Below are positions 1,958 to 16,255 of a stretch of 16,276 bases of DNA, in pieces. Source of the DNA: a virus (taxonomy: Duplodnaviria > Heunggongvirae > Uroviricota > Caudoviricetes); IMG/VR virus record IMGVR_UViG_3300033144_006348; one strand, 5' to 3'. The notes beneath the pieces are model-generated. The model was given only the letters and a program-made list of their open reading frames with translations, was not told the origin of the DNA and did not search any database. The first letter of the stretch is position 1. The number at the start of each line of letters is the position of its first letter. Both the position numbers and the translations under genes were made by a program.

Positions 1958-2176
1958 ATGTATGAAGAAACATGTGAAGGATGTCTAACACTAACATCCT
2001 TAAAAAATTCTAGATGTAGAATACAAAGTCATAATTATTCTATTATCTGTCCATGTGGAAACTGCATCGTAAAAATGATGTGTAATAAAAGATGTGAAGA
2101 TTTACAAAATGTAATAGATATTGTCAATCAGTATTGGGGACGTTGGGGGAGAATTGGCTTTGACAGATTTGATTGA
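1958..2176 (+). CDS. 8-Cys small protein (copy 3), 72 aa; last 32 nt overlap tmRNA
   Basis: CEGC...C...CPCGNCIVKMMCNKRC; GAGG upstream. Confidence 0.8.
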   Translation: MYEETCEGCLTLTSLKNSRCRIQSHNYSIICPCGNCIVKMMCNKRCEDLQNVIDIVNQYWGRWGRIGFDRFD

Positions 2177-2506
2177 AATTTTAGCTTCGTTTCGTTCGCT
2201 CGTCGTTAAGAGCAAAAATAAACATAATCGCAGACGATTATACCCAAGAATTTCGCCTAGCGGCATAATTCCGTTCCATCAATTTTTCTCTCGGATTGAA
2301 TGGGGCGTCGACTAGAGAGATAGGATTTTTGAAAGGGAAATAGCACCTGTAAACTGGCTTTCAAATTCTGAAAAATTTCCAGCAAATGGCGCGACCTTTA
2401 AGTCTTTTGTTGCATAGAGCTTTAAGGTCTATAATATGTGACTATAAACGTAAATGCTAGAATGGAACTTATTTGGACCCGAGTTCGAATCTCGGCTCCT
2501 CCACCA
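2145..2506 (+). ncRNA. ssrA: tmRNA (transfer-messenger RNA), 362 nt
   Basis: 5' GGGGGAG pairs with 3' CTCCTCC-A-CCA, giving G3:U70 and A73; T arm CCGAG-TTCGAAT-CTCGG; 5' GAATTGGCTTTGAC resembles the ssrA D-loop region; internal tag ORF 2230-2268. Confidence 0.93.
2230..2268 (+). other. tmRNA proteolysis tag reading frame: ADDYTQEFRLAA*
   Basis: ATAATC precedes a GCA resume codon; ends in LAA-TAA as in canonical ssrA tags. Confidence 0.88.
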
Positions 2507-2526
2507 AAAAAAAAAGAAAGGAATAA

Positions 2527-2790
2527 GTGAGTATGAGAAGAGGGGATAAAGTAAAAATCGATCCGATTTGTGATAGCACCAGAGGAAGATATGGAATAAA
2601 TGGAGAAATGCGTCAAATGCGTGGAACAGTTCAAATGATTAAATCAGTATCTGGTACCTTAGTGTTCTTAGAAAAATCATCGTGGCAATGGCATATTTCA
2701 GACTTAGTGTTAGATAAGGACATTGAGAAAGTTGTCATTCCAGTTAGCTCGTTTGATCCAGATAATTTGGTTGTGCCGGAGGTGACATAA
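2527..2790 (+). CDS. KOW/SH3-like small protein, paralog A, C-terminal FDPDNL (start may be ATG 2533)
   Basis: GDKVKI...M..M.G.V..I..V...W.W..SDL pattern shared with the next ORF; GAAAGGA RBS. Confidence 0.65.
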   Translation: MSMRRGDKVKIDPICDSTRGRYGINGEMRQMRGTVQMIKSVSGTLVFLEKSSWQWHISDLVLDKDIEKVVIPVSSFDPDNLVVPEVT

Positions 2791-3042
2791 GTGTTAATAG
2801 AAGAAGTAAAAGTTGGAATGAAGGTTAGAATATCTACCGCATGTCGAAAGACAAATGATACAGTTTCTGTAGTACCTGGTATGAAAAAATATCTTGGATC
2901 AGTTCAGACTGTTGATTGTGTTGATTTTGATGTCGTTTCTATACGAGGATTTTCATGGCATCCCCAAGATTTATTAACTCCAGATGAAGATCTACTTGAT
3001 AGAACACCACAATTTTTTGATCCGGAAAATTTAATTGGATAA
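2791..3042 (+). CDS. KOW/SH3-like small protein, paralog B, C-terminal FDPENL
   Basis: KVGMKVRI...M..Y.G.V.TV..V...FSWHPQDL; GGAGGT RBS; GTG start abuts previous stop. Confidence 0.65.
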   Translation: MLIEEVKVGMKVRISTACRKTNDTVSVVPGMKKYLGSVQTVDCVDFDVVSIRGFSWHPQDLLTPDEDLLDRTPQFFDPENLIG

Positions 3043-3466
3043 AAGATTACAAGCTGTACTTATTAAAAAATATTCATCTTTATGTCAAGAAACAGAACTA
3101 ACTATACAACAATCTTGTATGGCATGGGGATTTGAGGTTGGAGATGGTTGGTTTAAAATATTGGATGAGATGCTTGAAAAACTATCTAAACATGATGGCG
3201 TTGTTTTAGCTCAAGTAAAAGAAAAATTTGGGCTTCTCAGAGTATACATAAATCATGGAACAGATGAGGTCTATAATATAATTGATGAATATGAGAGCAA
3301 ATCTGCTCATATTTGTGAAACATGTGGGAAAGATGGAGAAGTAAGACCTGGAGGTTGGATATATACAGCATGTAATGAATGTGATAAAAAATTTAAAGCT
3401 GGAAAACGTCCTTGGTTAGAGGATTGGAACACTCCAGTTGAAGAATCAAATGATCCTATGGGCTAG
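3035..3466 (+). CDS. conserved phage-type hypothetical protein with C-terminal Zn ribbon, 143 aa; stop lies inside tRNA-Glu
   Basis: GFEVGDGWF, QVKEKFGLLRVY and CETCG...GGWIYTACNEC recall a widespread uncharacterised phage family; TTG start. Confidence 0.75.
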   Translation: MDKRLQAVLIKKYSSLCQETELTIQQSCMAWGFEVGDGWFKILDEMLEKLSKHDGVVLAQVKEKFGLLRVYINHGTDEVYNIIDEYESKSAHICETCGKDGEVRPGGWIYTACNECDKKFKAGKRPWLEDWNTPVEESNDPMG

Positions 3467-3528
3467 CGGTCGAGGCCATCAGACCTTCAATCTGAGTATC
3501 GGGGGTTCAAATCCCCCTAGGATCACCA
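3452..3528 (+). tRNA. trnE: tRNA-Glu(UUC), C at position 33
   Basis: Acceptor GATCCTA/TAGGATC; anticodon arm TCAGA-CCTTCAA-TCTGA; U13:G22; T arm GGGGG-TTCAAAT-CCCCC; CCA. Confidence 0.85.
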
Positions 3529-3539
3529 AAGGAGTAATT

Positions 3540-3872
3540 ATGAAAAAAATAATGTTTTTTATAGCATGCTTGCTATTTGTTTTTATGGCAAGTGTAGTAG
3601 ATGGAAAAGATACCTCCAAACCAGAGAAATGTACATTCCCACAAGGAAAAGTTTTCTTAACAATGTCTCCTTATATACCTGGAAAGGTAGTTAAGATTAT
3701 TTCCTATGAGGACCAAGATATAATAATTCTAGAACAAACCAATGGTATTGGAGTTTTAATGGTCAAAGGGTTTATTGCTCATTGCCTCATTCATAAAAGG
3801 GAGATAATGAATTGGGATCAAGTAGGATTTGTTCAGATGTATTACTTGAAAGATTGTACTCCACATGAATAA
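3540..3872 (+). CDS. secreted/periplasmic hypothetical protein with N-terminal signal peptide, 110 aa
   Basis: AAGGAG RBS directly after the tRNA CCA; MKKIMFFIACLLFVFMASVVDG is signal-peptide-like. Confidence 0.7.
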   Translation: MKKIMFFIACLLFVFMASVVDGKDTSKPEKCTFPQGKVFLTMSPYIPGKVVKIISYEDQDIIILEQTNGIGVLMVKGFIAHCLIHKREIMNWDQVGFVQMYYLKDCTPHE

Positions 3873-4206
3873 GAAAGGAGACTCTTTGGAAAATTATAAA
3901 GTAAAATTAGTAACAATTCTTCGCTGGGTGGATAATAATAATTGTGCTACTACAAAAGGGAAATTTTATAAAGATATAACTTTAAAGTATCTGCCTGCAA
4001 GACATATGCTTGTTGATATATGGAACGATAATATTTTTTATGTTGAACAAGTAAAACAACATGAATTAACAGGGGATCTAACCCTATATAGAAGATATGA
4101 TATGCATGATCACTTCTATCAGGAAGATAAATATCAAGAAAAACGAAAAGATTTATTATCAAAAGATTGGAAAGAATATGAAAATAAAATTGGGGTGGTC
4201 GGTTAA
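3865..4206 (+). CDS. hypothetical protein, 113 aa; stop inside tRNA-Trp
   Basis: Open frame overlapping the previous stop; TAA at tRNA positions 13-15. Confidence 0.7.
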   Translation: MNKKGDSLENYKVKLVTILRWVDNNNCATTKGKFYKDITLKYLPARHMLVDIWNDNIFYVEQVKQHELTGDLTLYRRYDMHDHFYQEDKYQEKRKDLLSKDWKEYENKIGVVG

Positions 4207-4266
4207 TGCGCAAACCAGCAGGTTCCAACCCTGTGACTCGGGGTTCAAATCCTCGTCGCCCCGCCA
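4192..4266 (+). tRNA. trnW: tRNA-Trp(CCA)
   Basis: Acceptor GGGGTGG/TCGCCCC, G73, CCA; anticodon arm GCAGG-TTCCAAC-CCTGT; D loop has GCG rather than GG. Confidence 0.88.
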
Positions 4267-4286
4267 TTTAAAAGAAAGGAACATCT

Positions 4287-4550
4287 ATGGAAGTTAAAAA
4301 AACGAAAAAATTAATATACAGTAATTCTTGGAATTTTTTTGATAATGTAAAAGTTGGAGAAACTTATCTGTATAGCACTATTTACACATTTCGAGAGGTT
4401 GTAAAATTGGCTGAAAGAGTTAGAATCAAACTTAGAAAAGGTGATACTTTATATAGTTTTATAGTTATATATATGCCTCCTGTAGCTAATAGAGAAGCGA
4501 TTATATTCGACCCAGAAATGTTGGATTTACCAAGTGGTGTCTTAGCTTAG
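4287..4550 (+). CDS. hypothetical protein, 87 aa, with FDPEML near the C-terminus; stop inside tRNA-Asp
   Basis: GAAAGGA RBS; TAG at tRNA positions 13-15. Confidence 0.7.
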   Translation: MEVKKTKKLIYSNSWNFFDNVKVGETYLYSTIYTFREVVKLAERVRIKLRKGDTLYSFIVIYMPPVANREAIIFDPEMLDLPSGVLA

Positions 4551-4614
4551 TCTGGTTCAAAGCGCTGGCTTGTCACGTCAGAGATCACGGGTTCAAATCC
4601 CGTATTCACCGCCA
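4536..4614 (+). tRNA. trnD: tRNA-Asp(GUC) with two acceptor-stem mismatches
   Basis: Anticodon arm CTGGC-TTGTCAC-GTCAG; T arm ACGGG-TTCAAAT-CCCGT; G73, CCA; acceptor GGTGTCT/ATTCACC. Confidence 0.85.
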
Positions 4615-4622
4615 TTTAATTT

Positions 4623-4699
4623 GGCCCGGTAGCTCAATTTGGGAGAGCATCTGCTTTGCACGCAGGAGGTTGAGGGTTCAAATCCCTCCCGGCCCACCA
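4623..4699 (+). tRNA. trnA: tRNA with Ala anticodon (UGC) but C3:C70 instead of G3:U70
   Basis: Acceptor GGCCCGG/CCGGCCC; anticodon arm TCTGC-TTTGCAC-GCAGG; T arm GAGGG-TTCAAAT-CCCTC; A73, CCA. Confidence 0.85.
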
Positions 4700-4723
4700 T
4701 TACAAAAAGAAAGGGAATCAAAA

Positions 4724-5758
4724 ATGAAGATAAAAACACATGTTGGATTTTGTATTGATGAAAGTGGATCTGTAAAACAAATTATTAAACCTCTTGTTAA
4801 TGCTTACAACCAAACAGTATCCGATATTAGAGACTCTGTCTTGGATGAAGGTCAAGAAGCATCTATGACAGCATTATCATTTGGAGATCGAGTTCTAAGG
4901 CACCGGGTTTTATATGTTGGTCAACAAGTTCAGACAGTTATTCCATTGGATTACAAGGATCTTAATCCCACTGGAACCACCCCTCTTTTTGACTCTGTTT
5001 ATAGAGCCATCAAAAAATTGGAGGAGTTAGACGATGGAAAGGAAACTACATCATTTATTATTACAACGGTAACAGATGGTTTTGAGAATGCCTCTTTTGA
5101 GCCTGGTGTTGAAGCAGCTCTTGCCCTCGTAGATGAAAAGACTGCAACAGATAGATGGACGTTTACTTTTATGGTTCCTAGAGGAAATTCTCAAGAGTTT
5201 TCTAGTAAGTTTGGAATTCCACTGGGGAATATTCAGGATTGGGATACAAAGACCGCAAAAGGGACAGAAGAAGGATTTGCTATCAGTTCAACAGCATACC
5301 ACGGATTTTTCAAAGAAAGAAGTAGGGGCATTAAAGCTACAAAATCCTTCTATTCAAGTATGGAAGGTGTTAATGTCAGAGATGTGAGATCTTCTCTATC
5401 AGAAATTACAAAGCAGGTAAAGGTACTTACTGCCAAAAAAGAATGGCAGATAAAGCCATTTATTGAAAGTAAAAAGCTGCCATATATTAGCGGTGCAGCA
5501 TTCTATCAACTGGTAAAAACGGAAAAGAAAGTCCAACCGTATAAACTGGTTGTAGTTAGAGTTATAACATCTGGAAAAATGTATTCGGGAAGAGAAGCCA
5601 GAGCAATGATTGGAATTGATGTTCCTGATACAGTTCGTCTGGTTCCTAAAGATCATGGGAAATTTGATATTTTCATTCAATCAACCAGTGTGAATAGAAA
5701 GATTCCCAAAGGGACGGACGTTCTTTACTGGACAAGGTTTGGAAGTCAACGTAAGTAA
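4724..5758 (+). CDS. von Willebrand factor A (vWA/MIDAS) domain protein with a C-terminal domain of unknown function, 344 aa
   Basis: MIDAS DxSxS (IDESGS), T (GTTPLFD) and D (TVTDG); C-terminal FYQLVK...QSTSVNRK; start moved from 4670 (inside the tRNA) to ATG 4724 after GAAAGGGA. Confidence 0.8.
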   Translation: MKIKTHVGFCIDESGSVKQIIKPLVNAYNQTVSDIRDSVLDEGQEASMTALSFGDRVLRHRVLYVGQQVQTVIPLDYKDLNPTGTTPLFDSVYRAIKKLEELDDGKETTSFIITTVTDGFENASFEPGVEAALALVDEKTATDRWTFTFMVPRGNSQEFSSKFGIPLGNIQDWDTKTAKGTEEGFAISSTAYHGFFKERSRGIKATKSFYSSMEGVNVRDVRSSLSEITKQVKVLTAKKEWQIKPFIESKKLPYISGAAFYQLVKTEKKVQPYKLVVVRVITSGKMYSGREARAMIGIDVPDTVRLVPKDHGKFDIFIQSTSVNRKIPKGTDVLYWTRFGSQRK

Positions 5759-5764
5759 AACCTG

Positions 5765-5805
5765 ATGGTGGGTGTATTGGTAATCTACACCCACCATTTA
5801 CTTTA
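5765..5805 (+). terminator. putative intrinsic terminator: perfect 12-bp stem, 9-nt loop
   Basis: ATGGTGGGTGTA (5765-5776) / TACACCCACCAT (5786-5797) followed by TTACTTT, just after the vWA stop. Confidence 0.5.
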
Positions 5806-5820
5806 ACTGGAAGGAGAATT

Positions 5821-5946
5821 ATGAAATTAATTAAATGGAAGATTAAAAGATTTTTTAGATATATTGAATTATTGATTACAGGTCACTGGACATATTGTGA
5901 TGGTTGTAAAAAATTTTCTCCTTCTTGGTATTGTCCATACTGTTGA
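5821..5946 (+). CDS. 41-aa Zn-ribbon micro-protein (not in the ORF track)
   Basis: GAAGGAG RBS; MKLIKWKIKRFF...YCDGC...YCPYC*. Confidence 0.6.
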   Translation: MKLIKWKIKRFFRYIELLITGHWTYCDGCKKFSPSWYCPYC

Positions 5947-5961
5947 AATGGAGAATAAGTT

Positions 5962-6159
5962 ATGGAAAATCCATGTGAAATTTGTATAGTCAATGCTTCC
6001 TGTACAGAAAGATGTACCGACTTTGCAAAGTATATTTATGAAAATAAAATCTATGACTGTGGTGGAGAACTTTCTAAAAAAAAAATTGAGCATATGTCAT
6101 ATCCTGAAGCGATAGAATATATTCTTATGATTGAAAATGTAATTTTATCAATTCAATAA
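5962..6159 (+). CDS. small protein with CxxCxxxxxCxxxC motif, 65 aa
   Basis: GGAGA RBS; PCEICIVNASCTERC. Confidence 0.75.
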   Translation: MENPCEICIVNASCTERCTDFAKYIYENKIYDCGGELSKKKIEHMSYPEAIEYILMIENVILSIQ

Positions 6160-6161
6160 GC

Positions 6162-6252
6162 ACCCCTGTAGCTCAGCGGCAGAGCAGCGGGTTTATGCCC
6201 CGAGCGCCGGATAAGCGGTTGGTCGTAGGTTCGAGTCCTACCAGGGGTACTA
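6162..6252 (+). tRNA. tRNA-like gene with UAU (Ile AUA) anticodon, 21-nt variable region and CTA in place of CCA
   Basis: Acceptor ACCCCTG/CAGGGGT, A73; D arm GCTC-AGCGGCA-GAGC; anticodon arm GCGGG-TTTATGC-CCCGA; T arm GTAGG-TTCGAGT-CCTAC. Confidence 0.7.
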
Positions 6253-6271
6253 ATTCTTTAAAGGAGATTAT

Positions 6272-6505
6272 ATGAGTGAGCTTAACATAATTATAGCAAA
6301 TAATGATCAACTAGCTGAAATATACACCGCTCTAAAGCAGGTTTCTATTATGCTCAAATCATATAACCAGATGTGTGTAAAAGCAAGGGATGATTATTTT
6401 CATAAAGGTAATGATGATCTAGCTAAAGAAGTGGAACAATCAATGGAACATGCAGATAAAAGAATGGAATCAATAGGAATCATATTACAATCAATTGAAG
6501 AATGA
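6272..6505 (+). CDS. hypothetical helical/coiled-coil protein, 77 aa
   Basis: AAGGAG RBS. Confidence 0.75.
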   Translation: MSELNIIIANNDQLAEIYTALKQVSIMLKSYNQMCVKARDDYFHKGNDDLAKEVEQSMEHADKRMESIGIILQSIEE

Positions 6506-6930
6506 AAGGAGCGAAAATGTGTTTATCAAAGCCAATTAATTTTAAAGTCAGACGTGAAGGAGGATACTATGTAGGATATAAAGTATTTGAATACAGAAAT
6601 GGAAAATTCTATAATCCATATTGGGCATACTCCAACCCAAAAAGAATGGATGAATGGTTAAAAGCTTATAGATGTACAACTGGGATTATCAGCTTTTCTT
6701 CTCGTGACCATGAGTTTTATCGACCTGGTTTTCATATTTTTAAAAATCTAAGAGACGCCATGGAAGAGGGCGCTTCATTTAGTACCCATGAGGTAGTCTT
6801 AAAAGTATATTTTGATGAAATTACTGAGAAAGGTGAATGGTGGTTAAAAAGTAGTTATGATGGTGATCCTATAAAAGTTGTCGTGGCAAAATATCTATAT
6901 ATCCCATCAGATGGAAGGATACGGAAGTAG
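6502..6930 (+). CDS. hypothetical protein (GYKVF...GFHIF type), 142 aa; start may be ATG 6517
   Basis: Open frame; AAGGAG lies before 6517; the TAG stop abuts the next ATG. Confidence 0.7.
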   Translation: MKGAKMCLSKPINFKVRREGGYYVGYKVFEYRNGKFYNPYWAYSNPKRMDEWLKAYRCTTGIISFSSRDHEFYRPGFHIFKNLRDAMEEGASFSTHEVVLKVYFDEITEKGEWWLKSSYDGDPIKVVVAKYLYIPSDGRIRK

Positions 6931-7323
6931 ATGCTAAGATTAGGCATTGACTTACATGGAGTTATAGATTCCGATGTTGATAAATTTAAAAATTTCTTAT
7001 CTGCAGCTAAAAGTATTGGAATCGACATATGTATAATATCTGGCCCAGACAAAGAATATATACAAAGCGAACTAAAAGAGTATGACATTATAAAGGGAGT
7101 ACATTATGATGGCATTCTTTCTGTTGTAGATTATCTAAAAGATAAAGGCGTCGAAATGTGGACAGATGAAAAAGGAAGATGGTGGGCCAGTGATGAAGAT
7201 TGGTGGAGTTGTAAAGCTGAACTCTGTAATTTACATTTTATAGATGTCATGATAGATGACTCTGAAAGATTTAGTCGCTACTTTGAGAATATCAGTACGA
7301 AATTCATATTATACGAAAGATGA
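6931..7323 (+). CDS. HAD-superfamily hydrolase-like protein (nucleotidase-like), 130 aa
   Basis: Motif I-like LGIDLHGVID, motif III-like K (CKAELC), motif IV MIDDS. Confidence 0.6.
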   Translation: MLRLGIDLHGVIDSDVDKFKNFLSAAKSIGIDICIISGPDKEYIQSELKEYDIIKGVHYDGILSVVDYLKDKGVEMWTDEKGRWWASDEDWWSCKAELCNLHFIDVMIDDSERFSRYFENISTKFILYER

Positions 7324-7331: not shown

Positions 7332-8162
7332 ATGAAATTTTGTGAAAATTACAAACAAATGGTTGAGAATATCATTCAGTTAACTTCTGAATATATGACA
7401 ATACATCATATGAAATCTATGATTATTGGTTTATCAGGCGGTATTGATAGTACTTTTTGTGCTGCTCTTGCATACGAAGCTAAGAAAAGAATAAAACATG
7501 ATATAAGTCTCATTGGTATAACTATTCCAATAGAAACATCCATAGATGAGACAAAGAGGGCACAAGTTACAGGAGAAGCTTTTTGTGATCATTTTCGTAT
7601 AGAAGGTATGCAAGAAATATACTGGGCTTTACGGGACGAATTAGTATGTACTTCTCCATATAGAAAGATAAGAGAGGGTAATATCAAAGCTCGTCTCCGA
7701 ATGATAAAGCTATTTGATGCTGCAAAAGAAAATGATGGATTAGTTCTTTCAACAGATAATTGGACAGAATATCTTCTAGGATTTTGGACTCTTCATGGAG
7801 ACGTTGGAAACTTTGGAATGATTCAGGAATTATGGAAGACTGAAGTTTATGGACTTGCTTATTATCTATGTACACAATACACTGTAGCTGGAGAACTAAA
7901 AAAGTCTGAAGCATTATTTGAAGGAATAAATGCAATACCAACTGATGGTCTTGGTATTACAGATTCCGATTTTGATCAAATAATGCCAGGATATGATAAA
8001 AGTTTAGATTCAAGGGAGGTGTATAGAAAAATAGATAGGTTGCTGATGAATCACAACCCTGTCCTTCCAGTAAATGATGTTACTAGACGTTATGTTGAGA
8101 CTAGTTTCAAACGGAACGATCCTTATAACATTAAACGAGAAGATATAATCGGAAAGGATTAA
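7332..8162 (+). CDS. nadE: NH3-dependent NAD(+) synthetase
   Basis: IIGLSGGIDS P-loop, GNIKARLRM, STDNWTEYLLGFWTLHGD, ELWKTEV, PTDGL; 276 aa, no glutaminase domain. Confidence 0.93.
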   Translation: MKFCENYKQMVENIIQLTSEYMTIHHMKSMIIGLSGGIDSTFCAALAYEAKKRIKHDISLIGITIPIETSIDETKRAQVTGEAFCDHFRIEGMQEIYWALRDELVCTSPYRKIREGNIKARLRMIKLFDAAKENDGLVLSTDNWTEYLLGFWTLHGDVGNFGMIQELWKTEVYGLAYYLCTQYTVAGELKKSEALFEGINAIPTDGLGITDSDFDQIMPGYDKSLDSREVYRKIDRLLMNHNPVLPVNDVTRRYVETSFKRNDPYNIKREDIIGKD

Positions 8163-8164
8163 TT

Positions 8165-9346
8165 ATGATAATTGAATCAGCGCTAGATCAGGATAAATAT
8201 AAAGTAAGTATGTTACAACCAATTTTTCATCAGTTCTCCGGAGCTATGGTTGAATATCAATTTAAATGTCGAACTCCTGGAATTGATTTTCGCCCATATG
8301 TTGGTGATATAATAAAAAATGTAAATAAGATGTGTATGCATGTTCACTTTACAAAAGAAGATCTAGAATATATTGGGGATACTATGGATTATATTACTTT
8401 AGATTTTCTTCAATTTCTAAAACAATATAGATATGAGTATGAATTTATACACATAACAACCGACGACAATGGAAACCTGCATATTTATATTATCGGACCC
8501 TGGTTATATACACACCTATTTGAGGTTCCAGTTCTCTCTATTATAAGTGAAGTATATTCCAGAGATATTAGTGAAAACTTTGAATATGCAAACATGAAAA
8601 CAATGGAAAAAGCAGATCTCATACAAGGGACTGGAGTTAGAATTGCTGAAGGTGGAGGTAGAAGAAGACACTCAATTGAAGCTCATTATAATGCTCTTGA
8701 AATCTTAAATTCTCGTTGCCCAGATAATCTAGTGGGAACCAGTAATATAATGATGGCCAAAAAACTTGGTATCAAATCTATGGGTACAATGGCCCACGAA
8801 TGGTTGCAAGCTCATCAAGCTCTTGGTTATCCAGTTGGGGATAGTCAAAAAATGGCACTTGAAAATTGGGCTAAAGAGTACCGTGGTAATCTTGGGATAG
8901 CTCTTTCTGATGTTATTGGTCTAAAGTATTTTCTTCATGATTTTGATATGTATCTTGCAAAATTGTTTGATGGAACAAGACAAGATTCTGGAGATCCATT
9001 TGAATATGGAAATGCTCTCATACATCATTATGCGTCAATGAATATAGATCCCAGAACAAAAAGTATAATATTCAGTGATGGTCTTGATTTTGAAAAAGCT
9101 TTAAAACTATATAACAGATTCAGAGATCGAATCCAAACTTCTTGTCTCATTGGTACCAATATAACAAATGATTTTGACTTCAATCCACTACAGATAGTTC
9201 TCAAGATGACAAAATGTAATGGTCAACCTGTAGCAAAAATAAGCGATACTCCTGAAAAAAGTATGTGCAATGACGAAGGGTATAAAGATTATGTCATATC
9301 CACGTTTGATAAAAGGATTAAAATATTATCCGGATATAATATATAA
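8165..9346 (+). CDS. pncB: nicotinate phosphoribosyltransferase (E. coli PncB-type)
   Basis: LDQDKYK, FKCR, GRRRHS, GTSN, GTMAHEW, RQDSGDP, IIFSDGLD, NGQPVAKISDTPEK; 393 aa. Confidence 0.92.
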   Translation: MIIESALDQDKYKVSMLQPIFHQFSGAMVEYQFKCRTPGIDFRPYVGDIIKNVNKMCMHVHFTKEDLEYIGDTMDYITLDFLQFLKQYRYEYEFIHITTDDNGNLHIYIIGPWLYTHLFEVPVLSIISEVYSRDISENFEYANMKTMEKADLIQGTGVRIAEGGGRRRHSIEAHYNALEILNSRCPDNLVGTSNIMMAKKLGIKSMGTMAHEWLQAHQALGYPVGDSQKMALENWAKEYRGNLGIALSDVIGLKYFLHDFDMYLAKLFDGTRQDSGDPFEYGNALIHHYASMNIDPRTKSIIFSDGLDFEKALKLYNRFRDRIQTSCLIGTNITNDFDFNPLQIVLKMTKCNGQPVAKISDTPEKSMCNDEGYKDYVISTFDKRIKILSGYNI

Positions 9347-9497
9347 TGGATATCTTAGAAAAGTATTAGAGGTCTATGAAGGTGAAGGTCTTGACTTCGC
9401 TATATGTGACCCCTATTATAAAAGATACGATTGTAAAAAATGCAAGGGAAAAGGAAAATTAGATTGGATTCAAAAAGTCATGGGAGTTAAAGAATGA
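9270..9497 (+). CDS. DnaJ-type Zn-finger micro-protein, copy 1 (first CxxC degenerate; start uncertain)
   Basis: CKKCKGKGKLDWIQKVMG; track start overlaps pncB by 77 nt; the coupled ATG at 9346 is out of frame. Confidence 0.5.
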   Translation: MTKGIKIMSYPRLIKGLKYYPDIIYNGYLRKVLEVYEGEGLDFAICDPYYKRYDCKKCKGKGKLDWIQKVMGVKE

Positions 9498-9669
9498 GTA
9501 ATCATAGTTTTGAAGGAATAATAGAATTATTTCCTGGTGAGGAACTTTGTCCAGAATGTAAAGGTAAAGGTCTTGAATTAAAACCTATTATAAAAGACAC
9601 AATTGTAAATTATGCAAAGGAAAAGGAAAAATTGACTGGATCCAAAAAGCTATGGGTATATCAAAATGA
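9412..9669 (+). repeat. 86-bp colinear direct repeat (9412-9497 and 9584-9669), 17 mismatches
   Basis: Manual alignment, offset 172, no indels. Confidence 0.85.
9494..9669 (+). pseudogene. DnaJ-type Zn-finger micro-protein, copy 2, split by a -1 frameshift near 9577-9600
   Basis: CPECKGKG in the start frame; CKLCKGKGKIDWIQKAMGISK* in the -1 frame, ending TGA 9667-9669. Confidence 0.65.
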
Positions 9670-9860
9670 CATTAAGTAACTATATTTCATCTAATGAAAG
9701 AAGACTAAATCCAATTGACTTATCACCAGGGGAAGAAGTTTGTCCAAGGTGTAAAGGAATGAAAGGTATATATCTTGTATTTCCTGGATCTCTTAGGAGA
9801 TGCCCTCTATGTAAAGGCAAAGGAAAAGTTGACTGGATCCAAAAAGCAATAGGGGTTTAA
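9666..9860 (+). CDS. DnaJ-type Zn-finger micro-protein, copy 3 (intact), 64 aa
   Basis: PGEEVCPRCKGMKG...CPLCKGKGKVDWIQKAIG. Confidence 0.75.
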   Translation: MTLSNYISSNERRLNPIDLSPGEEVCPRCKGMKGIYLVFPGSLRRCPLCKGKGKVDWIQKAIGV

Positions 9861-10022: not shown

Positions 10023-10099
10023 GCGTCGGTAGCTCAGTCGAGTAGAGCAGAGGGCTTTTAACCCTAAGGTCGCGAGTTCGAATCTCGCTCGGCGCACCA
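10023..10099 (+). tRNA. trnK: tRNA-Lys(UUU)
   Basis: Acceptor GCGTCGG/TCGGCGC, A73, CCA; anticodon arm GAGGG-CTTTTAA-CCCTA; D loop GAG rather than GG. Confidence 0.9.
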
Positions 10100-10118: not shown

Positions 10119-10328
10119 ATGAAAGGTCAAGACGTGTTCGATTATAGATATGAATATAAAGTAGAATCTTTCTTCGCAAATGACATGAAAGAAATAAATC
10201 AATATCTTGAAAACAAAAACCTTGATGCTAGAGATGTTATAAACATAATACACGATGAAACTCATGATCATTGGTATGAAATCATTTATATTAAAAAAGT
10301 CAATAGGGAAAAGGAGAATAATTCGTGA
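10119..10328 (+). CDS. hypothetical protein, 69 aa
   Basis: GAAAGGAG RBS. Confidence 0.7.
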   Translation: MKGQDVFDYRYEYKVESFFANDMKEINQYLENKNLDARDVINIIHDETHDHWYEIIYIKKVNREKENNS

Positions 10329-10561
10329 AAAAATTATTTGACAAAAATGAACGCTACAATAAAGAATCACATAAAATTGATTCAGAGTTTTATAGGGCTG
10401 TAAAACCCATATTAGAACGTTATGCTAAAGAAGGGTATTCTCTAAGGGAACTATCTTATATAGCACAAAATAGTGTTCGTGATGCAGAATTAGAATTTTT
10501 GATCGGCAGTGATTTAAAATTAGAAAAACAGTTAGAAGAAGAAAGAAAGAAGGAGATGTAG
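10325..10561 (+). CDS. hypothetical protein, 78 aa; stop inside tRNA-Asn
   Basis: AAGGAG RBS, GTGA overlap; TAG at tRNA positions 8-10. Confidence 0.75.
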   Translation: MKKLFDKNERYNKESHKIDSEFYRAVKPILERYAKEGYSLRELSYIAQNSVRDAELEFLIGSDLKLEKQLEEERKKEM

Positions 10562-10626
10562 CTAAATGGCTTAGCAGTCGGCTGTTAACCGACAGTATGT
10601 GGGTTCAAGTCCCATCATCTCCTCCA
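10552..10626 (+). tRNA. trnN: tRNA-Asn(GUU), variant with G1-C72 and U73
   Basis: Acceptor GGAGATG/CATCTCC; anticodon arm GTCGG-CTGTTAA-CCGAC; CCA. Confidence 0.88.
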
Positions 10627-10641: not shown

Positions 10642-10717
10642 TCTCCGGTAGCTCAGTTGGTAGAGCGGGTGGCTGTTAACCACTTAGTCGGCAGTTCGAA
10701 TCTGTCCCGGAGAGCCA
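10642..10717 (+). tRNA. trnN: tRNA-Asn(GUU), canonical U1-A72 and G73
   Basis: Acceptor TCTCCGG/CCGGAGA; anticodon arm GGTGG-CTGTTAA-CCACT; CCA. Confidence 0.93.
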
Positions 10718-11298: not shown

Positions 11299-11304
11299 TA
11301 AAAT

Positions 11305-11381
11305 AGCGGCGTAGCTCAGTTGCGTAGAGCAGTCGGCCGATAACCGGCAGGTCGTGGGTTCAAGTCCCTCCGCCGCTACCA
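11305..11381 (+). tRNA. trnI: tRNA-Ile(GAU), C at position 33
   Basis: Acceptor AGCGGCG/CGCCGCT, A73, CCA; anticodon arm GTCGG-CCGATAA-CCGGC; D loop GCG. Confidence 0.88.
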
Positions 11382-11384
11382 ATT

Positions 11385-11444
11385 TGTACATATTCATACA
11401 GGATTTTGTACATATACATACAAAATCCTGTACATTTTTATACA
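11385..11444. promoter_or_regulatory. three tandem TGTA-N8-TACA palindromes at a 22-bp period, containing a 14-bp inverted repeat
   Basis: TGTACATATTCATACA (11385), TGTACATATACATACA (11407), TGTACATTTTTATACA (11429); inverted repeat 11397-11410 / 11419-11432. Confidence 0.6.
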
Positions 11445-11456
11445 AAAGGAGTATAT

Positions 11457-11666
11457 ATGGAAAAAGTATACTGTAAAAACTGCGAACACCTATTCCAGGA
11501 TATTAAGTTTAAGAAATGTACAGAAGTTCTACAAAATACTTACTATACTCGTGAATATGGAAATCCAATTAAGATTAATGCAAATAATGACTGTAATCAT
11601 TTCAAACTAAAAAAGAAAAAAAAGAGAAGAGTATGGCATTATTGGTTTGCTGCTCCATGGATTTAA
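11457..11666 (+). CDS. small Cys-containing hypothetical protein, 69 aa
   Basis: AAGGAG RBS before ATG 11457; YCKNCEH...C...N.NNDCNHF. Confidence 0.7.
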   Translation: MEKVYCKNCEHLFQDIKFKKCTEVLQNTYYTREYGNPIKINANNDCNHFKLKKKKKRRVWHYWFAAPWI

Positions 11667-11669
11667 AGA

Positions 11670-12092
11670 ATGAAAGTAAAACTTGATTTCATAACAAATA
11701 GCTCATCCTTATCGCATATTGTTTGTATACCAAGATGGTTAGAAATATCAGATGAAGATGAAAGAGCTAAAAAAGCTGTTGATCTTTATGCAGATAGTTT
11801 AACCCCCGCTATAAAACTATTTCAAACTATGAAAAGCCTATTTAAACAACTAAAAAGTGATGGGCTTCTTGCTATGGGTGATCTTAAAGACAGGGAATGG
11901 TTGGGATATTATTCTCTATGCACCTTTTTTCATAGTTCTGAATATGAAATTGTTAATTTTGAGACAGGATCAGGAGGAGGATTTATAGAAAATATATCAG
12001 TTGAAAAACTTAATGAAACATTCATTACTGTGAATAAAGACAAACTCGAATCATCATTCAGATTTTTAGAAAAGGAGAAAAACCATCGGTAA
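11670..12092 (+). CDS. hypothetical protein with N-terminal MKVKLDFITNSSS motif, 140 aa
   Basis: N-terminus resembles the widespread uncharacterised DFVTNSSSSSF-type motif. Confidence 0.7.
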   Translation: MKVKLDFITNSSSLSHIVCIPRWLEISDEDERAKKAVDLYADSLTPAIKLFQTMKSLFKQLKSDGLLAMGDLKDREWLGYYSLCTFFHSSEYEIVNFETGSGGGFIENISVEKLNETFITVNKDKLESSFRFLEKEKNHR

Positions 12093-12567
12093 CTTATTTA
12101 GAAACATAAAAAATGGAATTCAAAATCTTATATTATGGTTTCCAATTATTTGGAGAGATAGGAACTGGGATCATGTGTTCATTTATGATATTTTCAGACA
12201 TAAACTTAACTTAATGGAAAAAAACATTAGAAAATATGGTCATCATACGAACTCAGAAAAAGATGCAGACAAAATTAAAAAATGCGTTATACTTCTAGAC
12301 CGTCTCGTTGAGGATAAATATCATGATAATGCTTATAAAGATTATTATAAAAAATGGGGAGAAGCACATTTAGAATGGATAGATATTGACAATTCTGATC
12401 TTACACAAGCTAAGATAACTCATCCAAATGTTAAAAATAGCAAGGATAGAAAACAAGAGAGAAAAGAATTTAAAATATGTATGGAACATGAAGCATATCT
12501 TAGAGAGCAAGACCTGGATCTGTTGTTTGAAACAATGCGAAAACATATTCAATGTTGGTGGGATTAA
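12085..12567 (+). CDS. conserved phage-type hypothetical protein (W.PIIW.DR.WD motif), about 160 aa, apparent ATC start
   Basis: Frame is open upstream of the track's GTG 12175 and carries LILWFPIIWRDRNWDH; AAGGAG 7 nt before ATC 12085. Confidence 0.6.
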   Translation: MGNLFRNIKNGIQNLILWFPIIWRDRNWDHVFIYDIFRHKLNLMEKNIRKYGHHTNSEKDADKIKKCVILLDRLVEDKYHDNAYKDYYKKWGEAHLEWIDIDNSDLTQAKITHPNVKNSKDRKQERKEFKICMEHEAYLREQDLDLLFETMRKHIQCWWD

Positions 12568-12568
12568 A

Positions 12569-12811
12569 ATGTACACAAAAAAGAAAAGTATTAACTATTT
12601 ATGGGAAATAATACATAGATGTTTGGCAACAGATTCTTATACTTATACTGAAACTACCGTAGAAGGAGAGAATCAAGAGGATGCAATGAATTTTTTCAAT
12701 AAATATGTTGCCGATGGAACATATATACTTCCAATAGATAACATAAATAATGTGTATCCATTCAAATATATTGCGAAAGGAGAACAACTTAAAAAAAGTG
12801 AAAAAAGGTGA
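12569..12811 (+). CDS. hypothetical protein, 80 aa
   Basis: ATG 12569, 1 nt after the previous stop; GGTGGGA upstream. Confidence 0.6.
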   Translation: MYTKKKSINYLWEIIHRCLATDSYTYTETTVEGENQEDAMNFFNKYVADGTYILPIDNINNVYPFKYIAKGEQLKKSEKR

Positions 12812-13070
12812 TTTAAAAGTTTGGTGGATACCTCAAGTACCAATGAAACCCTTTGAGGTTCCAGTTAAAAATATTGATGAAGCAATTTTACTTCTTAAAA
12901 CTCTAGCACTATACGATATATTTCAATTTGAGAATAATATCAAACCTGACTATTGTAACGCTGGAGGATTACAAATATATGAAGACGGTGAATGGATTGA
13001 CTATTACAGTGAAGATTCTCAAGACATTGACGAAATAATGAGGGAACAACTTAAAAATGAAAGAAGGTAA
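12798..13070 (+). CDS. phage P22 Gp17-like protein (superinfection-exclusion gene 17 family), 90 aa
   Basis: LKVWWIPQVPMKPFEVPV...YDIFQFENNIKPDYCNAGGL closely matches my recollection of P22 gp17 (LRVWHIPQVPMKPF...YDAFQYDNNIKPDYCNANGL). Confidence 0.78.
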   Translation: MKKGDLKVWWIPQVPMKPFEVPVKNIDEAILLLKTLALYDIFQFENNIKPDYCNAGGLQIYEDGEWIDYYSEDSQDIDEIMREQLKNERR

Positions 13071-13320
13071 TATAGAATTAGCGAAAATTGAAATAGAAAG
13101 AGATCTAATACTTTGTAATAAATGTCTGGTATCTACCATGTGTGCAGAATCATGTGAAAATTTTCATAATGAAGTAATGGATCTTTTACCACCAAAAAAA
13201 TATTTAGACAATTTTAAAAAGGATCTAGCAGATGATATTAGGAAAGCAGTAGTGAATACATCGTTTCAAACAATAACAGTTACTTTCAAATGGAGACTTG
13301 ATAGAAAGGGGAAATTATGA
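13057..13320 (+). CDS. small protein with CxxCxxxxxCxxxC motif, 87 aa
   Basis: LCNKCLVSTMCAESC; GAGGGA RBS. Confidence 0.7.
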   Translation: MKEGNIELAKIEIERDLILCNKCLVSTMCAESCENFHNEVMDLLPPKKYLDNFKKDLADDIRKAVVNTSFQTITVTFKWRLDRKGKL

Positions 13321-13718
13321 GTAACAGACCTTTTTATGCAGTCGTTTTAATAAATAATAAAGATCAATCAATTAAAGATCTTATGATACAACATCAAAAC
13401 CAAATTATGGAACAAATGAAATTTTATAGGTTTTATGAAGACATATGTAACCAAATTGAAGATCTAAAAGAAAACTATGAAACGGCAGAAAAATATTTTG
13501 GGAATTTATTCTATGATCAGTGCCACTATGAAATTTATCTTAAAAATATATTTGAACTTAAAGAAGAATACAATGCTAATTGCGAAGATGTATTTCTATA
13601 TATTTTCACAAAAAATTCAGCAGGATATTGGGAATCATTACAAATATTTTTAATGGATTCTACTGATAACCTAATTATGCCATATTTCTGTGATGGAAAT
13701 CTATTTTTACCAAGTTAA
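13317..13718 (+). CDS. hypothetical protein, 133 aa
   Basis: AAGGGG RBS; ATGA overlap. Confidence 0.7.
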   Translation: MSNRPFYAVVLINNKDQSIKDLMIQHQNQIMEQMKFYRFYEDICNQIEDLKENYETAEKYFGNLFYDQCHYEIYLKNIFELKEEYNANCEDVFLYIFTKNSAGYWESLQIFLMDSTDNLIMPYFCDGNLFLPS

Positions 13719-13733
13719 TGAAAGGAGATTTTG

Positions 13734-13892
13734 ATGAGCAAACAAAAGCCTAAAAAAGAAGAACAAATGCACCAACATGTTGACAACTCAGGAATACCTT
13801 TTGGGAAAACACATCCAGTTGATGCTAATCATAAAAATGAAAAAACTCAAAAGGCTCATAAGGAAACAATGAAACATGGGGGAATAAAATGA
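13734..13892 (+). CDS. 52-aa Lys/His-rich micro-protein (not in the ORF track)
   Basis: GAAAGGAG RBS; MSKQKPKKEEQMHQHVDNSG...HGGIK*; ATGA overlap with the next gene. Confidence 0.6.
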   Translation: MSKQKPKKEEQMHQHVDNSGIPFGKTHPVDANHKNEKTQKAHKETMKHGGIK

Positions 13893-14305
13893 AAATCGAG
13901 TGTTCAATATGTAATTGTGAAATTACAGACATTTCAATCTCTAAAACTTTAGAGGTAAGAGATGATTATGAAAAACAAGTCAGTAGTGGAGATTTCATTC
14001 AGGGACCACATGATAGAGAATATTTTTCAAGCAAAGTTAATGCTATATACTATAAGTGTAATTGTGGAGAACAAATTTTAAGATTACATGAAGATAATCG
14101 GATTGAAAATTTCATAAGAGACTCAAAAAGAATAGATCCAAATGATTTAGTGTATAATCATTATGGTAATTTAAAAATAGATAGTAAAGAAAAAAGTGAA
14201 TTATTTATTATAACGAGAGAGCAACTTGATTTATTAAAAGAAGCTCCTGAAAATATAAGAGATGAAGAGGTAGAGTCGATTCTAAAGAAAAATAAGCGGG
14301 CGTAG
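13889..14305 (+). CDS. hypothetical protein with CxxC...CxC, 138 aa; stop inside tRNA-Gly
   Basis: GGGGG RBS; TAG at tRNA positions 8-10. Confidence 0.7.
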   Translation: MKIECSICNCEITDISISKTLEVRDDYEKQVSSGDFIQGPHDREYFSSKVNAIYYKCNCGEQILRLHEDNRIENFIRDSKRIDPNDLVYNHYGNLKIDSKEKSELFIITREQLDLLKEAPENIRDEEVESILKKNKRA

Positions 14306-14370
14306 TTTACGTGGCAAAATATTGGGCTTCCACCCCGATGTAGGGGTTTCGAATACCCCCGTCCGCTCCA
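14296..14370 (+). tRNA. trnG: tRNA-Gly(UCC)
   Basis: Acceptor GCGGGCG/CGTCCGC, U73, CCA; anticodon arm TTGGG-CTTCCAC-CCCGA. Confidence 0.9.
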
Positions 14371-14386
14371 TTTGAAAGGAGACAAA

Positions 14387-14635
14387 ATGCTCCATGCCAT
14401 CATAGGAATAGTAATAGTATTTGTAGTATATTTCGGAGCGATGTATTTAGACTCTAAATTTGAAGCACGATCATTTAACAATGGAATCTGTCCAAAATGT
14501 GGAACAAATTTAAAATTGTTTAGAGGCTCACAGGGTAGAAGAGGATGGAAATGCTCAAATTGTGATTATCTTATTTGGATTAGTTATCCAAGTGTAGATA
14601 GAAAGCAACTAAAAAATGAAACAGCACCCATGTAA
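14387..14635 (+). CDS. single-pass membrane protein with cytoplasmic-type Zn ribbon, 82 aa
   Basis: GAAAGGAG RBS; hydrophobic N-terminus, then CPKCG...WKCSNC. Confidence 0.7.
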   Translation: MLHAIIGIVIVFVVYFGAMYLDSKFEARSFNNGICPKCGTNLKLFRGSQGRRGWKCSNCDYLIWISYPSVDRKQLKNETAPM

Positions 14636-14969
14636 AGAATGTATTATAAGGTCCTGCTGCAGGAAAGATTGTGGTAGCTACTACTCATTTAGAAAATCGT
14701 GGTGTTTTATTTCAGGTAATTTATCGCTTGTTATTTCAACAGTTGTATTATTCCCAATCATTATCTTGACAAGGCATTTTGAATTTGGAACACATATTTT
14801 CGGGATATTATACTTTTTATCTATAATTTTCTTAATTTTTTTAGAATTTCGTTCTCATCATGATCTTGACTTTTCAATTTTATTAATGGGAATAGCTCCA
14901 ATAACAATAGTAGCTCTTATATTTATAAAAATCGTGGAGATCCACACAAGAAAATATTCGGCACGTTAG
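14616..14969 (+). CDS. membrane protein (about 3 TM) with N-terminal CxxCxxxxxCxxxC motif, 117 aa; stop inside tRNA-Phe
   Basis: PCKECIIRSCCRKDC followed by hydrophobic segments; TAG at tRNA positions 8-10. Confidence 0.7.
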   Translation: MKQHPCKECIIRSCCRKDCGSYYSFRKSWCFISGNLSLVISTVVLFPIIILTRHFEFGTHIFGILYFLSIIFLIFLEFRSHHDLDFSILLMGIAPITIVALIFIKIVEIHTRKYSAR

Positions 14970-15034
14970 CTTAGGAGGTAGAGCGCCGGGTTGAAGCCCC
15001 GAAGGCTCCCGTTCGACTCGGGAACGTGCTACCA
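14960..15034 (+). tRNA. trnF: tRNA-Phe(GAA), G37 and G1:U72
   Basis: Acceptor GGCACGT/ACGTGCT, A73, CCA; anticodon arm CCGGG-TTGAAGC-CCCGA. Confidence 0.88.
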
Positions 15035-15048
15035 TAGGAGGATTTTTA

Positions 15049-15213
15049 ATGGCAAAAACTTATAACATTGTAGAAATTGAAGACTTTGCAGATGATGCTG
15101 CAACAATAGCTCTTTTAGATGCCGAAGGTGCTAATGATTGGGAACTAGCTGATATTACTTATAGTCCACAATCAAATGGAAGCACAACAGCTCTTTGTGT
15201 ATTTATAAAATAA
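15049..15213 (+). CDS. 54-aa acidic micro-protein, weakly DUF4177-like (not in the ORF track)
   Basis: AGGAGG RBS right after the tRNA CCA; MAKTYNIVEI...LDAEGANDWEL. Confidence 0.6.
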   Translation: MAKTYNIVEIEDFADDAATIALLDAEGANDWELADITYSPQSNGSTTALCVFIK

Positions 15214-15223
15214 GAGAACTATA

Positions 15224-15637
15224 TTGCAGTATCTAACAGAGAAAAAACGAACTATAAAACGGGTGAGAAGACTCAAAGGCAGTGGTGACGGAAACGTTCC
15301 AATGACATTATGGAGTCTTACTGTAACATATATAAACAATGTAAAAATAAATGAAACATTCAAAAGACAAGAATTATTTAATGGAATCAGAAACCTAAAA
15401 ACTAGATTCTTTTATCAATGTGTTATACATGAACCAACTATAGATACTTACAGAATGTGGTTAACTTCTTCTGAATTTATTGAAAAAACAGAAAACCCTG
15501 GAGTATATAAGAAGCTTCAGGATATTCCAGAAGATTTAACTATCACGAAACTACGAAAATATCTTTATGGGGATTCATGGAAAAAATGGTTTATACCAAG
15601 AGAAGAATCCTTGGGAACCAAAAAGGAAAAAATGTAG
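15224..15637 (+). CDS. hypothetical protein, 137 aa; TAG stop straddles the 5' end of tRNA-His
   Basis: TTG start, weak RBS. Confidence 0.55.
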   Translation: MQYLTEKKRTIKRVRRLKGSGDGNVPMTLWSLTVTYINNVKINETFKRQELFNGIRNLKTRFFYQCVIHEPTIDTYRMWLTSSEFIEKTENPGVYKKLQDIPEDLTITKLRKYLYGDSWKKWFIPREESLGTKKEKM

Positions 15638-15711
15638 TGGCCGAAGCCAACCGGTGAGGCGCAAGACTGTGGCTCTTGCTTTAGCGGGTTCGACTCCCGT
15701 CGGTCACCCCA
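15637..15711 (+). tRNA. trnH: tRNA-His(GUG), no genomic G-1, A at position 8
   Basis: Acceptor GTGGCCG/CGGTCAC, C73, CCA; anticodon arm CAAGA-CTGTGGC-TCTTG; base -1 is A15636. Confidence 0.88.
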
Positions 15712-15727
15712 AATAGAAAGGAAAAAG

Positions 15728-15997
15728 ATGAGTTTATTTAACGAAGGAAACGAATGGTCATATTTAACTGTATCAAAAGAAGAACATTATGCTTTTGATG
15801 CTAGAGCAAAAGAACAAAGAATATCTCCATCACAATTATGGATGAACATAATTACAGATAATGGACGAGTACCAATAAAACGAATTCTATGTGAAAAATC
15901 TGAAAATAATGAGAGTATCTGTGATGATCATTGTAATGATGAAGATTGCCCTTGGTTACGAGAACGAGGGATTGAAAGGAGTGAAAGGAGTAAGTAA
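15728..15997 (+). CDS. hypothetical protein, possibly ribbon-helix-helix-like N-terminus plus Cys/His-rich tail, 89 aa
   Basis: GAAAGGA RBS; YLTVSKEEHYAFDARAKEQRISPSQL resembles RHH strand-helix-turn-helix (fold call weak). Confidence 0.6.
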   Translation: MSLFNEGNEWSYLTVSKEEHYAFDARAKEQRISPSQLWMNIITDNGRVPIKRILCEKSENNESICDDHCNDEDCPWLRERGIERSERSK

Positions 15998-16000
15998 AAC

Positions 16001-16186
16001 ATGATAGAAGGTCAAATCTTAAAAAGAGTAAATCTCGCCATAGAGGCACATGGGGGAGAAAAATTTGACCGAATAAAATGTGGATGTATCTCCCAAAAGA
16101 GATTAAAGTGTAACTATTGTAAAATCTATTACGCTTTAATACAATGCAAAGATTATTTGAGAATGAGAATAAACAAGCCCTTATAG
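16001..16186 (+). CDS. small Cys-rich protein, 61 aa; stop inside tRNA-Arg
   Basis: AAGGAG RBS; CGC...CNYC...C; TAG at tRNA positions 8-10. Confidence 0.7.
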   Translation: MIEGQILKRVNLAIEAHGGEKFDRIKCGCISQKRLKCNYCKIYYALIQCKDYLRMRINKPL

Positions 16187-16255
16187 CTCAGTCCGGATTA
16201 GAGCGCCTGGCTACGAACTAGGAGGTCGTGGGTTCAAATCCCTCTAGGGGCTCCA
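16177..16255 (+). tRNA. trnR: tRNA-Arg(ACG), U73
   Basis: Acceptor GCCCTTA/TAGGGGC; anticodon arm CCTGG-CTACGAA-CTAGG; A20 present; CCA. Confidence 0.9.

What the first reader, a model, noticed from the sequence alone, without database searches (positions are those of the whole stretch)
1958..16255. Stop codons embedded in tRNA genes: tRNA punctuation that would make non-stop mRNAs, beside a tmRNA and a Pth-like gene
Seen: 9 of the 13 RNA genes that directly follow an ORF contain its stop codon. Positions 13-15: Glu (3464-66), Trp (4204-06), Asp (4548-50). Positions 8-10: Asn (10559-61), Gly (14303-05), Phe (14967-69), Arg (16184-86). Positions -2..+1: His (15635-37). The tmRNA is overlapped by 32 nt. 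In the other four cases the stop is 1-8 nt upstream. Seven of the eight TAG stops among the + strand genes I called lie in tRNAs. Downstream genes usually start 11-24 nt after the CCA with their own RBS. Established: RNase P cuts at tRNA +1; stop-less mRNAs stall ribosomes and are rescued by tmRNA-SmpB, which tags the product for proteolysis; Pth recycles peptidyl-tRNA. Inference: tRNA maturation would convert these mRNAs into non-stop messages, and the locally encoded tmRNA and PTH2-like protein could either clean up the cost or act as a timer that switches those proteins off. For His, the cut leaves 'UA', which oligoadenylation would complete to UAA, as in mitochondrial tRNA punctuation.
Basis: partly seen in the sequence, partly recalled or inferred. 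Interest (0 to 1): 0.8.

Follow-up and report, generated by a model that had tools for sequence, protein, structure and literature searches.

The report
Phage genes ending inside tRNA genes
In an uncultured giant phage, 9 of 13 small genes borrow their stop codon from the tRNA gene that follows them; this is an unusually dense case of an already described overlap, and it looks like a by-product of tight packing, not a designed switch.

Summary
The window is the tRNA region of a roughly 300-kb phage. Genes normally stop 3-15 nt before the next tRNA; overlap is the tail of that distribution. It occurs at 31/122 junctions in related phages, 13/72 in unrelated phages (T5 included) and 9/13 here (binomial p=0.001, but the window was picked for this). 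tRNAs supply the stops passively: 52% of non-overlapped phage tRNAs have a stop at 8-10 and 21% at 13-15. Overlapping genes use early stops more than random frames would (8/8 vs 4.0; 25/32 vs 15.7), so the stop is probably used on the uncut precursor. Homologous genes flip between overlapped and not; the tmRNA overlap is absent in its closest relatives. Overlap is not commoner in phages with tmRNA (5/40 vs 8/32). The non-stop mRNA idea is published (PMC4131195), and this scan saw the same thing in another phage. The Pth2-like gene's conserved partner is a CUA-anticodon tRNA (65/80 loci), not the overlaps. Non-stop messages after RNase P cutting remain a likely but untested consequence; a programmed timer has about 12% probability.

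The parts
1..234 (+). 3' part of a Pth2-like gene (start lies outside the window)
   Evidence: 21 of 24 homologs hit Pfam PTH2; profile hits solved Pth2; Atlas
1268..1339 (+). Degenerate tRNA, called Arg(UCU) but homologous to CUA-anticodon tRNAs; upstream stop 8 nt away, no overlap
1958..2176 (+). 72-aa Cys-rich ORF running 32 nt into the tmRNA; homologs stop before it
2145..2506 (+). tmRNA, tag (A)ADDYTQEFRLAA, G3-U acceptor pair, encoded CCA
3035..3466 (+). 143-aa ORF of a large family, stop at tRNA-Glu 13-15
3452..3528 (+). tRNA-Glu(UUC), overlapped
3865..4206 (+). 113-aa ORF, stop at tRNA-Trp 13-15
4192..4266 (+). tRNA-Trp(CCA), overlapped
4287..4550 (+). 87-aa ORF, stop at tRNA-Asp 13-15
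4536..4614 (+). tRNA-Asp(GUC), overlapped, two acceptor-stem mismatches
4623..4699 (+). tRNA-Ala(UGC), follows a tRNA
6162..6250 (+). tRNA-Ile(UAU) with long variable arm, no encoded CCA; stop 2 nt upstream
10023..10099 (+). tRNA-Lys(UUU); stop 1 nt upstream
10325..10561 (+). 78-aa ORF, stop at tRNA-Asn 8-10
10552..10626 (+). tRNA-Asn(GUU) 1, overlapped
10642..10717 (+). tRNA-Asn(GUU) 2, follows a tRNA
11305..11381 (+). tRNA-Ile(GAU); stop 6 nt upstream
13889..14305 (+). 138-aa ORF, stop at tRNA-Gly 8-10
14296..14370 (+). tRNA-Gly(UCC), overlapped
14616..14969 (+). 117-aa ORF, stop at tRNA-Phe 8-10
14960..15034 (+). tRNA-Phe(GAA), overlapped
15224..15637 (+). 137-aa ORF, TAG straddling tRNA-His +1
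15637..15711 (+). tRNA-His(GUG) with A at -1 and A8; relatives have G at -1
16001..16186 (+). 61-aa ORF, stop at tRNA-Arg 8-10; no homolog found
16177..16255 (+). tRNA-Arg(ACG), overlapped

Best explanation
A by-product of packing in a phage region where small genes and tRNAs alternate on one strand. The spacer between a gene's stop and the next tRNA is squeezed to a few bases. When a point change or small indel removes the stop, the frame runs into the tRNA, whose conserved U8-A9-G10 or positions 13-15 often provide a stop 2-4 codons later; such changes are tolerated, while those that read far into the tRNA are mostly lost. Shown: layout, rates, passive supply of stops, early-stop bias, lability in homologs. 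Inferred: ribosomes finish on the uncut precursor, then the tRNA folds and RNase P cuts at +1; ribosomes still on the upstream piece reach a stop-less end and are cleared by ordinary trans-translation (host SmpB with host or phage tmRNA). The cost is a cap on protein per transcript, not a dedicated system.
For: In relatives the stops peak at -12 to -3 and tail smoothly into the tRNA; 31/122 overlap. Unrelated phages show 13/72, leaving out GC-rich Bxz1; T5 has annotated overlaps of T5.069, hegC and hegD. Other viral loci show 28/150. Stops at 8-10 and 13-15 are present in 52% and 21% of 956 non-overlapped tRNAs. Early-stop bias: p=0.002 in the window, p=0.0002 in relatives. Homologous gene-RNA pairs differ: tmRNA +30/-13/-7; Glu +13,+13,+13,-1,-14; Asp +13,+13,-1,-6; His -2,+21,-8; Val -10,-9,+8. 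The tRNA-encoded residues lie beyond the conserved protein core. Gene-gene overlap in the window is as frequent, 16/32. No link to tmRNA: 5/40 with, 8/32 without, p=0.22.
Against: The window's 69% is a real outlier against a homogeneous clade rate (heterogeneity p=0.59 among the others), and I have no tested reason for it. Some overlaps persist across proteins only 50-78% identical (Glu, Asp, Gln, Ser junctions), which fits a ratchet but also function. Junctions in other genomes were called by a longest-ORF heuristic. There is no RNA evidence.
Confidence: 0.65

Rival explanations
1. Programmed timer: tRNA maturation deliberately turns these messages non-stop, and the phage tmRNA tags the products for destruction.
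For: 9/13 is above the clade rate. The tmRNA looks intact with a tag ending LAA. Some overlaps are old. The same feedback was proposed for Carsonella smpB-ssrA.
Against: The tmRNA overlap is missing in eight relatives. Overlap is not associated with tmRNA. tmRNA-bearing relatives have 0/6, 0/3, 3/18, 3/13. If only cut messages mattered, stop position would be free, yet it is biased early. No SmpB was found in five partial relative genomes.
Confidence: 0.12
2. Relaxed tRNA function in this lineage: several tRNAs are decaying or poorly processed, so overlaps cost little and accumulate.
For: 6/11 window tRNAs carry a stem or consensus defect against 27/104 in relatives (p=0.04). His lacks G-1 and U8, Asp has two acceptor mismatches, and the CUA-family tRNA is degenerate.
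Against: In relatives, overlapped tRNAs are no more defective than others (8/30 vs 19/74, p=0.78). All eight overlapped tRNAs keep CCA and score 45-67 bits in Rfam.
Confidence: 0.12
3. Amber read-through: a phage CUA tRNA reads the tRNA-embedded TAG codons and extends or fuses the proteins.
For: Seven stops are TAG. A CUA-family tRNA lies at 1268-1339. Read-through at Gly and His would run in frame into the next gene.
Against: TAG is simply what U8-A9-G10 spells. His homologs end in TAA with no fusion. Two of seven in frame is near chance. The window's CUA tRNA has a broken anticodon stem in the CUA register.
Confidence: 0.05
4. Mitochondria-like punctuation, with incomplete stops completed by A-tailing.
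For: A cut at +1 leaves UA (His) or U (tmRNA ORF), which an A tail turns into UAA.
Against: Only 2/9 here and 9/40 overall; there is no peak at -2/-1 among relatives. Bacterial A-tailing mainly promotes decay (own knowledge).
Confidence: 0.03
5. Assembly errors near gene ends created the overlaps.
For: Gene 9494-9679 looks frameshifted at an A run. The Gly junction has an out-of-frame TAA at -3 beside an A run.
Against: Four junctions are identical in an independent assembly. A second contig matches 2226 bases with no gap. Glu and Asp overlaps recur in other phages.
Confidence: 0.03

Closest known systems
CDS overlap with t(m)RNA genes predicted to give non-stop mRNA, incl. Carsonella smpB-ssrA (Hudson, Lau & Williams 2014, PMC4131195)
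   Same: Same-strand gene whose stop lies past the 5' end of a tRNA or tmRNA; same predicted outcome; also variable between strains.
   Different: In bacteria only 250 such cases among 115,660 t(m)RNA genes (Pfam-positive genes only); here 9 of 15 RNA genes in 16 kb, in a phage, and the genes are small hypothetical ones, not smpB.
tRNA region of coliphage T5 (AY543070)
   Same: tRNAs alternate with small genes; T5.069, hegC and hegD end 14-24 nt inside tRNAs.
   Different: T5 has no tmRNA, a lower rate (3/9 abutting junctions), and two of three cases are homing endonucleases.
Mitochondrial tRNA punctuation (own knowledge; reviews)
   Same: tRNAs sit flush between genes, and their excision would cut the long transcript.
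   Different: Most genes here adjoin other genes; complete stops lie inside the tRNA; ends completed by A-tailing are the minority.
Jumbo-phage translation-support genes: tRNAs, PTH2, NAD salvage (Iyer et al. 2021, PMC7824862); phage tmRNAs (PMC4131195)
   Same: Same gene repertoire in the region.
   Different: The Pth2-like family here lacks the usual catalytic lysine and is linked to a CUA tRNA.

Membership tests
t(m)RNA-overlap non-stop mRNA candidates (Hudson 2014) | Same-strand CDS upstream with its stop past RNA +1 | tested here: met
   9 cases
t(m)RNA-overlap non-stop mRNA candidates (Hudson 2014) | RNA gene is a valid tRNA or tmRNA | tested here: met
   ARAGORN and Rfam agree on all nine; His and Asp have defects
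t(m)RNA-overlap non-stop mRNA candidates (Hudson 2014) | Co-transcription and RNase P cut yielding non-stop mRNA | not testable with these tools
   No RNA data available; no terminator-like site at the nine junctions
Mitochondrial tRNA punctuation | Incomplete stops (U, UA) completed by A-tailing as a rule | tested here: not met
   2/9 in window, 9/40 overall
Mitochondrial tRNA punctuation | tRNAs separate nearly all genes | tested here: not met
   13 of 45 genes are followed by an RNA gene; 32 adjoin another gene
tmRNA (RF00023) | tRNA-like domain with G3-U pair and CCA, tag frame ending in LAA | tested here: met
   130 bits
tmRNA (RF00023) | SmpB partner | tested here: inconclusive
   None in five partial relative genomes; host copy assumed
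Pth2 (PF01981) | Sequence similarity to Pth2 | tested here: met
   21/24 homologs hit PTH2, below or near cut-off; profile E=1e-5 to solved Pth2; window fragment alone has no Pfam hit
Pth2 (PF01981) | Catalytic Lys of the GK motif and Asp of the DAG motif (roles from own knowledge) | tested here: not met
   Aligned to Gln and Glu in the homolog profile; the Lys position lies outside the window
Amber-suppressor tRNA | CUA anticodon in a 7-nt loop on a paired stem | tested here: inconclusive
   Homologs have clean CUA; window copy has two stem mismatches in that register and pairs better as UCU

The most novel reading that the evidence does not exclude
This lineage uses tRNA maturation as an expression limiter: each transcript first yields a few full-length proteins, then RNase P releases the tRNA and the phage's own tmRNA tags whatever is still being translated, so nine small proteins are switched off in step with tRNA production.
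Probability: 0.12. Interest if true: 0.75.

Novelty: new member of a known kind. Interest (0 to 1): 0.3.

Why it matters
As a by-product it shows that tRNA-rich phages commonly (about a fifth to a quarter of abutting junctions) make transcripts that cannot be both a complete message and a mature tRNA, far more often than bacteria. This dense case is a good test bed for how translation and RNase P compete on one RNA, and for why some phages carry tmRNA. It also warns annotators that genes overlapping tRNAs can be real. If the timer reading held, it would be a new way for phages to control protein lifetime.

Tried and rejected
No RNA holder listed; the one RNA run laid gave no contigs; neither is evidence. 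Pattern scans of viral contigs for the tmRNA and tRNA-Glu found nothing. No cultured phage matches the window beyond a tRNA. Promoter and terminator scans were at shuffle level (83 vs 75.5; 7 vs 6.6). The idea that loss of the amber suppressor freed TAG stops in tRNAs was dropped: relatives with intact CUA tRNAs also end in tRNA TAGs, and L003, with the same odd tRNA, has only 2/7. No Thg1 was found in five partial relatives. One relative junction (L159 Ile, +129) was treated as a heuristic artefact, and Bxz1 was left out because long chance ORFs are common at 63% GC. Separate tRNA promoters would not refute the non-stop idea, since the gene's own transcript would still carry the tRNA.
Full report
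What the window is. All genes lie on the + strand: about 45 small ORFs, 14 tRNAs and a tmRNA. Related viral contigs have completeness estimates that mostly imply genomes near 300 kb, so this is the tRNA region of a jumbo phage. Its proteins are on record from an 80-kb JGI contig. The host is unknown.

The observation. Every stated coordinate holds. Nine of 13 gene-to-RNA junctions overlap; 7 of 8 TAG stops lie in tRNAs. An independent assembly at 99.5% identity reproduces the tmRNA, Glu, Trp and Asp junctions. Seven of the nine overlapping ORFs have homologs elsewhere; the Phe ORF has only weak N-terminal matches and the Arg ORF none.

How unusual. I gathered related phage loci through five proteins and one tmRNA pattern, and scored junctions with a longest-ORF heuristic. 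In 16 relatives the stop peaks at -12 to -3 and tails into the tRNA; 31/122 junctions overlap, with no heterogeneity among genomes. Nine unrelated phages give 13/72 and other viral loci 28/150. T5's own annotation shows three genes ending 14-24 nt inside tRNAs. The window's 9/13 is an outlier (p=0.001; 0.013 after correction), but it was chosen for this trait, and gene-gene overlaps in the same window are as frequent (16/32, p=0.33). Bacteria show 250 cases among 115,660 t(m)RNA genes, counting Pfam-positive genes only (PMC4131195).

Why stops sit at 8-10 and 13-15. These triplets are tRNA features: 52% and 21% of 956 non-overlapped phage tRNAs carry a stop there. Non-overlapped tRNA-Glu and tRNA-Trp homologs have the same stop at 13-15. 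This also explains the TAG excess.

The stops appear to be used. A frame entering a tRNA at random would often read far on. Yet 8/8 window cases stop by position 15 (4.0 expected, p=0.002) and 25/32 in relatives (15.7 expected, p=0.0002). Stops straddling +1 inflate this slightly. If the message were useful only after cutting, stop position would be free, so I infer that termination on the uncut precursor matters.

Conservation. Homologous gene-RNA pairs flip state: tmRNA +30 against -13 and -7; His -2, +21, -8; Val -10, -9, +8; Asp +13, +13, -1, -6; Glu +13 three times, -1, -14. The tRNA-encoded residues lie beyond the conserved core of the Glu-ORF family, whose other members end earlier. Some overlaps are old and keep frame across spacer indels, which fits a ratchet as well as a function.

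tmRNA and Pth2-like gene. The tmRNA looks intact. Among unrelated phages, overlap is 5/40 with tmRNA and 8/32 without. No SmpB was found in five partial relatives. The gene at 1-234 is Pth2-like, but its family has Gln and Glu where Pth2 has its catalytic Lys and Asp (roles from own knowledge). Its conserved neighbour is a CUA-anticodon tRNA: 65 of 80 loci, against 1 of 80 control loci. The window's copy at 1268-1339 is a degenerate member. Earlier scan notes report this pairing. So the Pth2-like gene belongs to another module and gives no support to the overlap model.

Mechanism. Inferred, not shown: ribosomes translate the long precursor and terminate a few codons inside the tRNA; once they leave, the tRNA folds and RNase P cuts at +1. 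Trailing ribosomes then meet an end with no stop, a good tmRNA substrate since short 3' extensions favour tagging (PMC4201823). Only 0-4 tRNA-encoded residues would be lost (10 for the tmRNA ORF). A-tailing would complete a stop in only 2 of 9.

What is known. The non-stop consequence of such overlaps, including a feedback reading, is in Hudson, Lau and Williams 2014. The layout is that of T5. This scan reported the same thing in another phage (e1-3278837) and a tmRNA overlap in a third (e1-5354384). I found no paper that quantifies it across phages.

Verdict. Real, unusually dense, and most likely a tolerated by-product of packing (0.65). Relaxed tRNA function (0.12) and a programmed timer (0.12) are not excluded. 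New member of a known kind; interest 0.3.

Noticed in passing
window 1-234 and 1268-1339; L155-L234: Pth2-like genes have a CUA-anticodon tRNA nearby in 65 of 80 viral loci, often directly downstream (control 1 of 80). The window's tRNA is a degenerate member that can also be read as Arg(UCU). Already noted by this scan elsewhere.
   Followed up: partly
L003 about 1310-1400; same place in L009, L150, L156: Upstream of the two-gene Pth2-like operon, relatives carry a short leader with repeated TAG codons; this lies outside the window.
   Followed up: no
window 15634-15711: tRNA-His has A at -1 where relatives have G; this A makes the TAG that ends the upstream gene. With G the frame would run through the tRNA into the next gene. 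No Thg1 found in partial relatives.
   Followed up: partly
window 9494-9679: Zinc-finger-like paralog looks frameshifted near 9590: the family's C-terminal motif continues in another frame. Pseudogene or assembly error.
   Followed up: partly
window 7332-9346: NAD salvage pair: NadE-like gene (by motif, own reading) and nicotinate phosphoribosyltransferase.
   Followed up: partly
window 6162-6250: tRNA with UAU anticodon, long variable arm and no encoded CCA; the syntenic tRNA-Ile(UAU) in L010 is a normal 76-mer.
   Followed up: no
window 6928-6933: The only TAG stop outside a tRNA is followed directly by the in-frame ATG of the next gene, so amber read-through would fuse them.
   Followed up: no
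window 1354-1560, 1763-1954, 1958-2176, 5962-6159, 13057-13320, 14616-14969: A recurring family of small Cys-rich paralogs, common in the relatives' tRNA regions too.
   Followed up: no
window 4724-5758: 344-aa gene with a vWA-like motif (own reading), no Pfam hit, 57-79% identical in over 20 metagenome contigs.
   Followed up: no
window 11397-11432: 14-pair hairpin with a T-rich tail after tRNA-Ile(GAU), the only strong terminator-like site on the + strand.
   Followed up: no
L235 about 1408-1850: A relative encodes a short GGQ release-factor-domain protein (ArfB-like) within its tRNA region.
   Followed up: partly
L236: The source's gene calls omit the Glu and Trp ORFs that overlap tRNAs, though both are intact there.
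   Followed up: no
L035 / L038: A related phage tRNA-tmRNA contig is deposited inside a Thermoplasmatales MAG, probably mis-binned.
   Followed up: no
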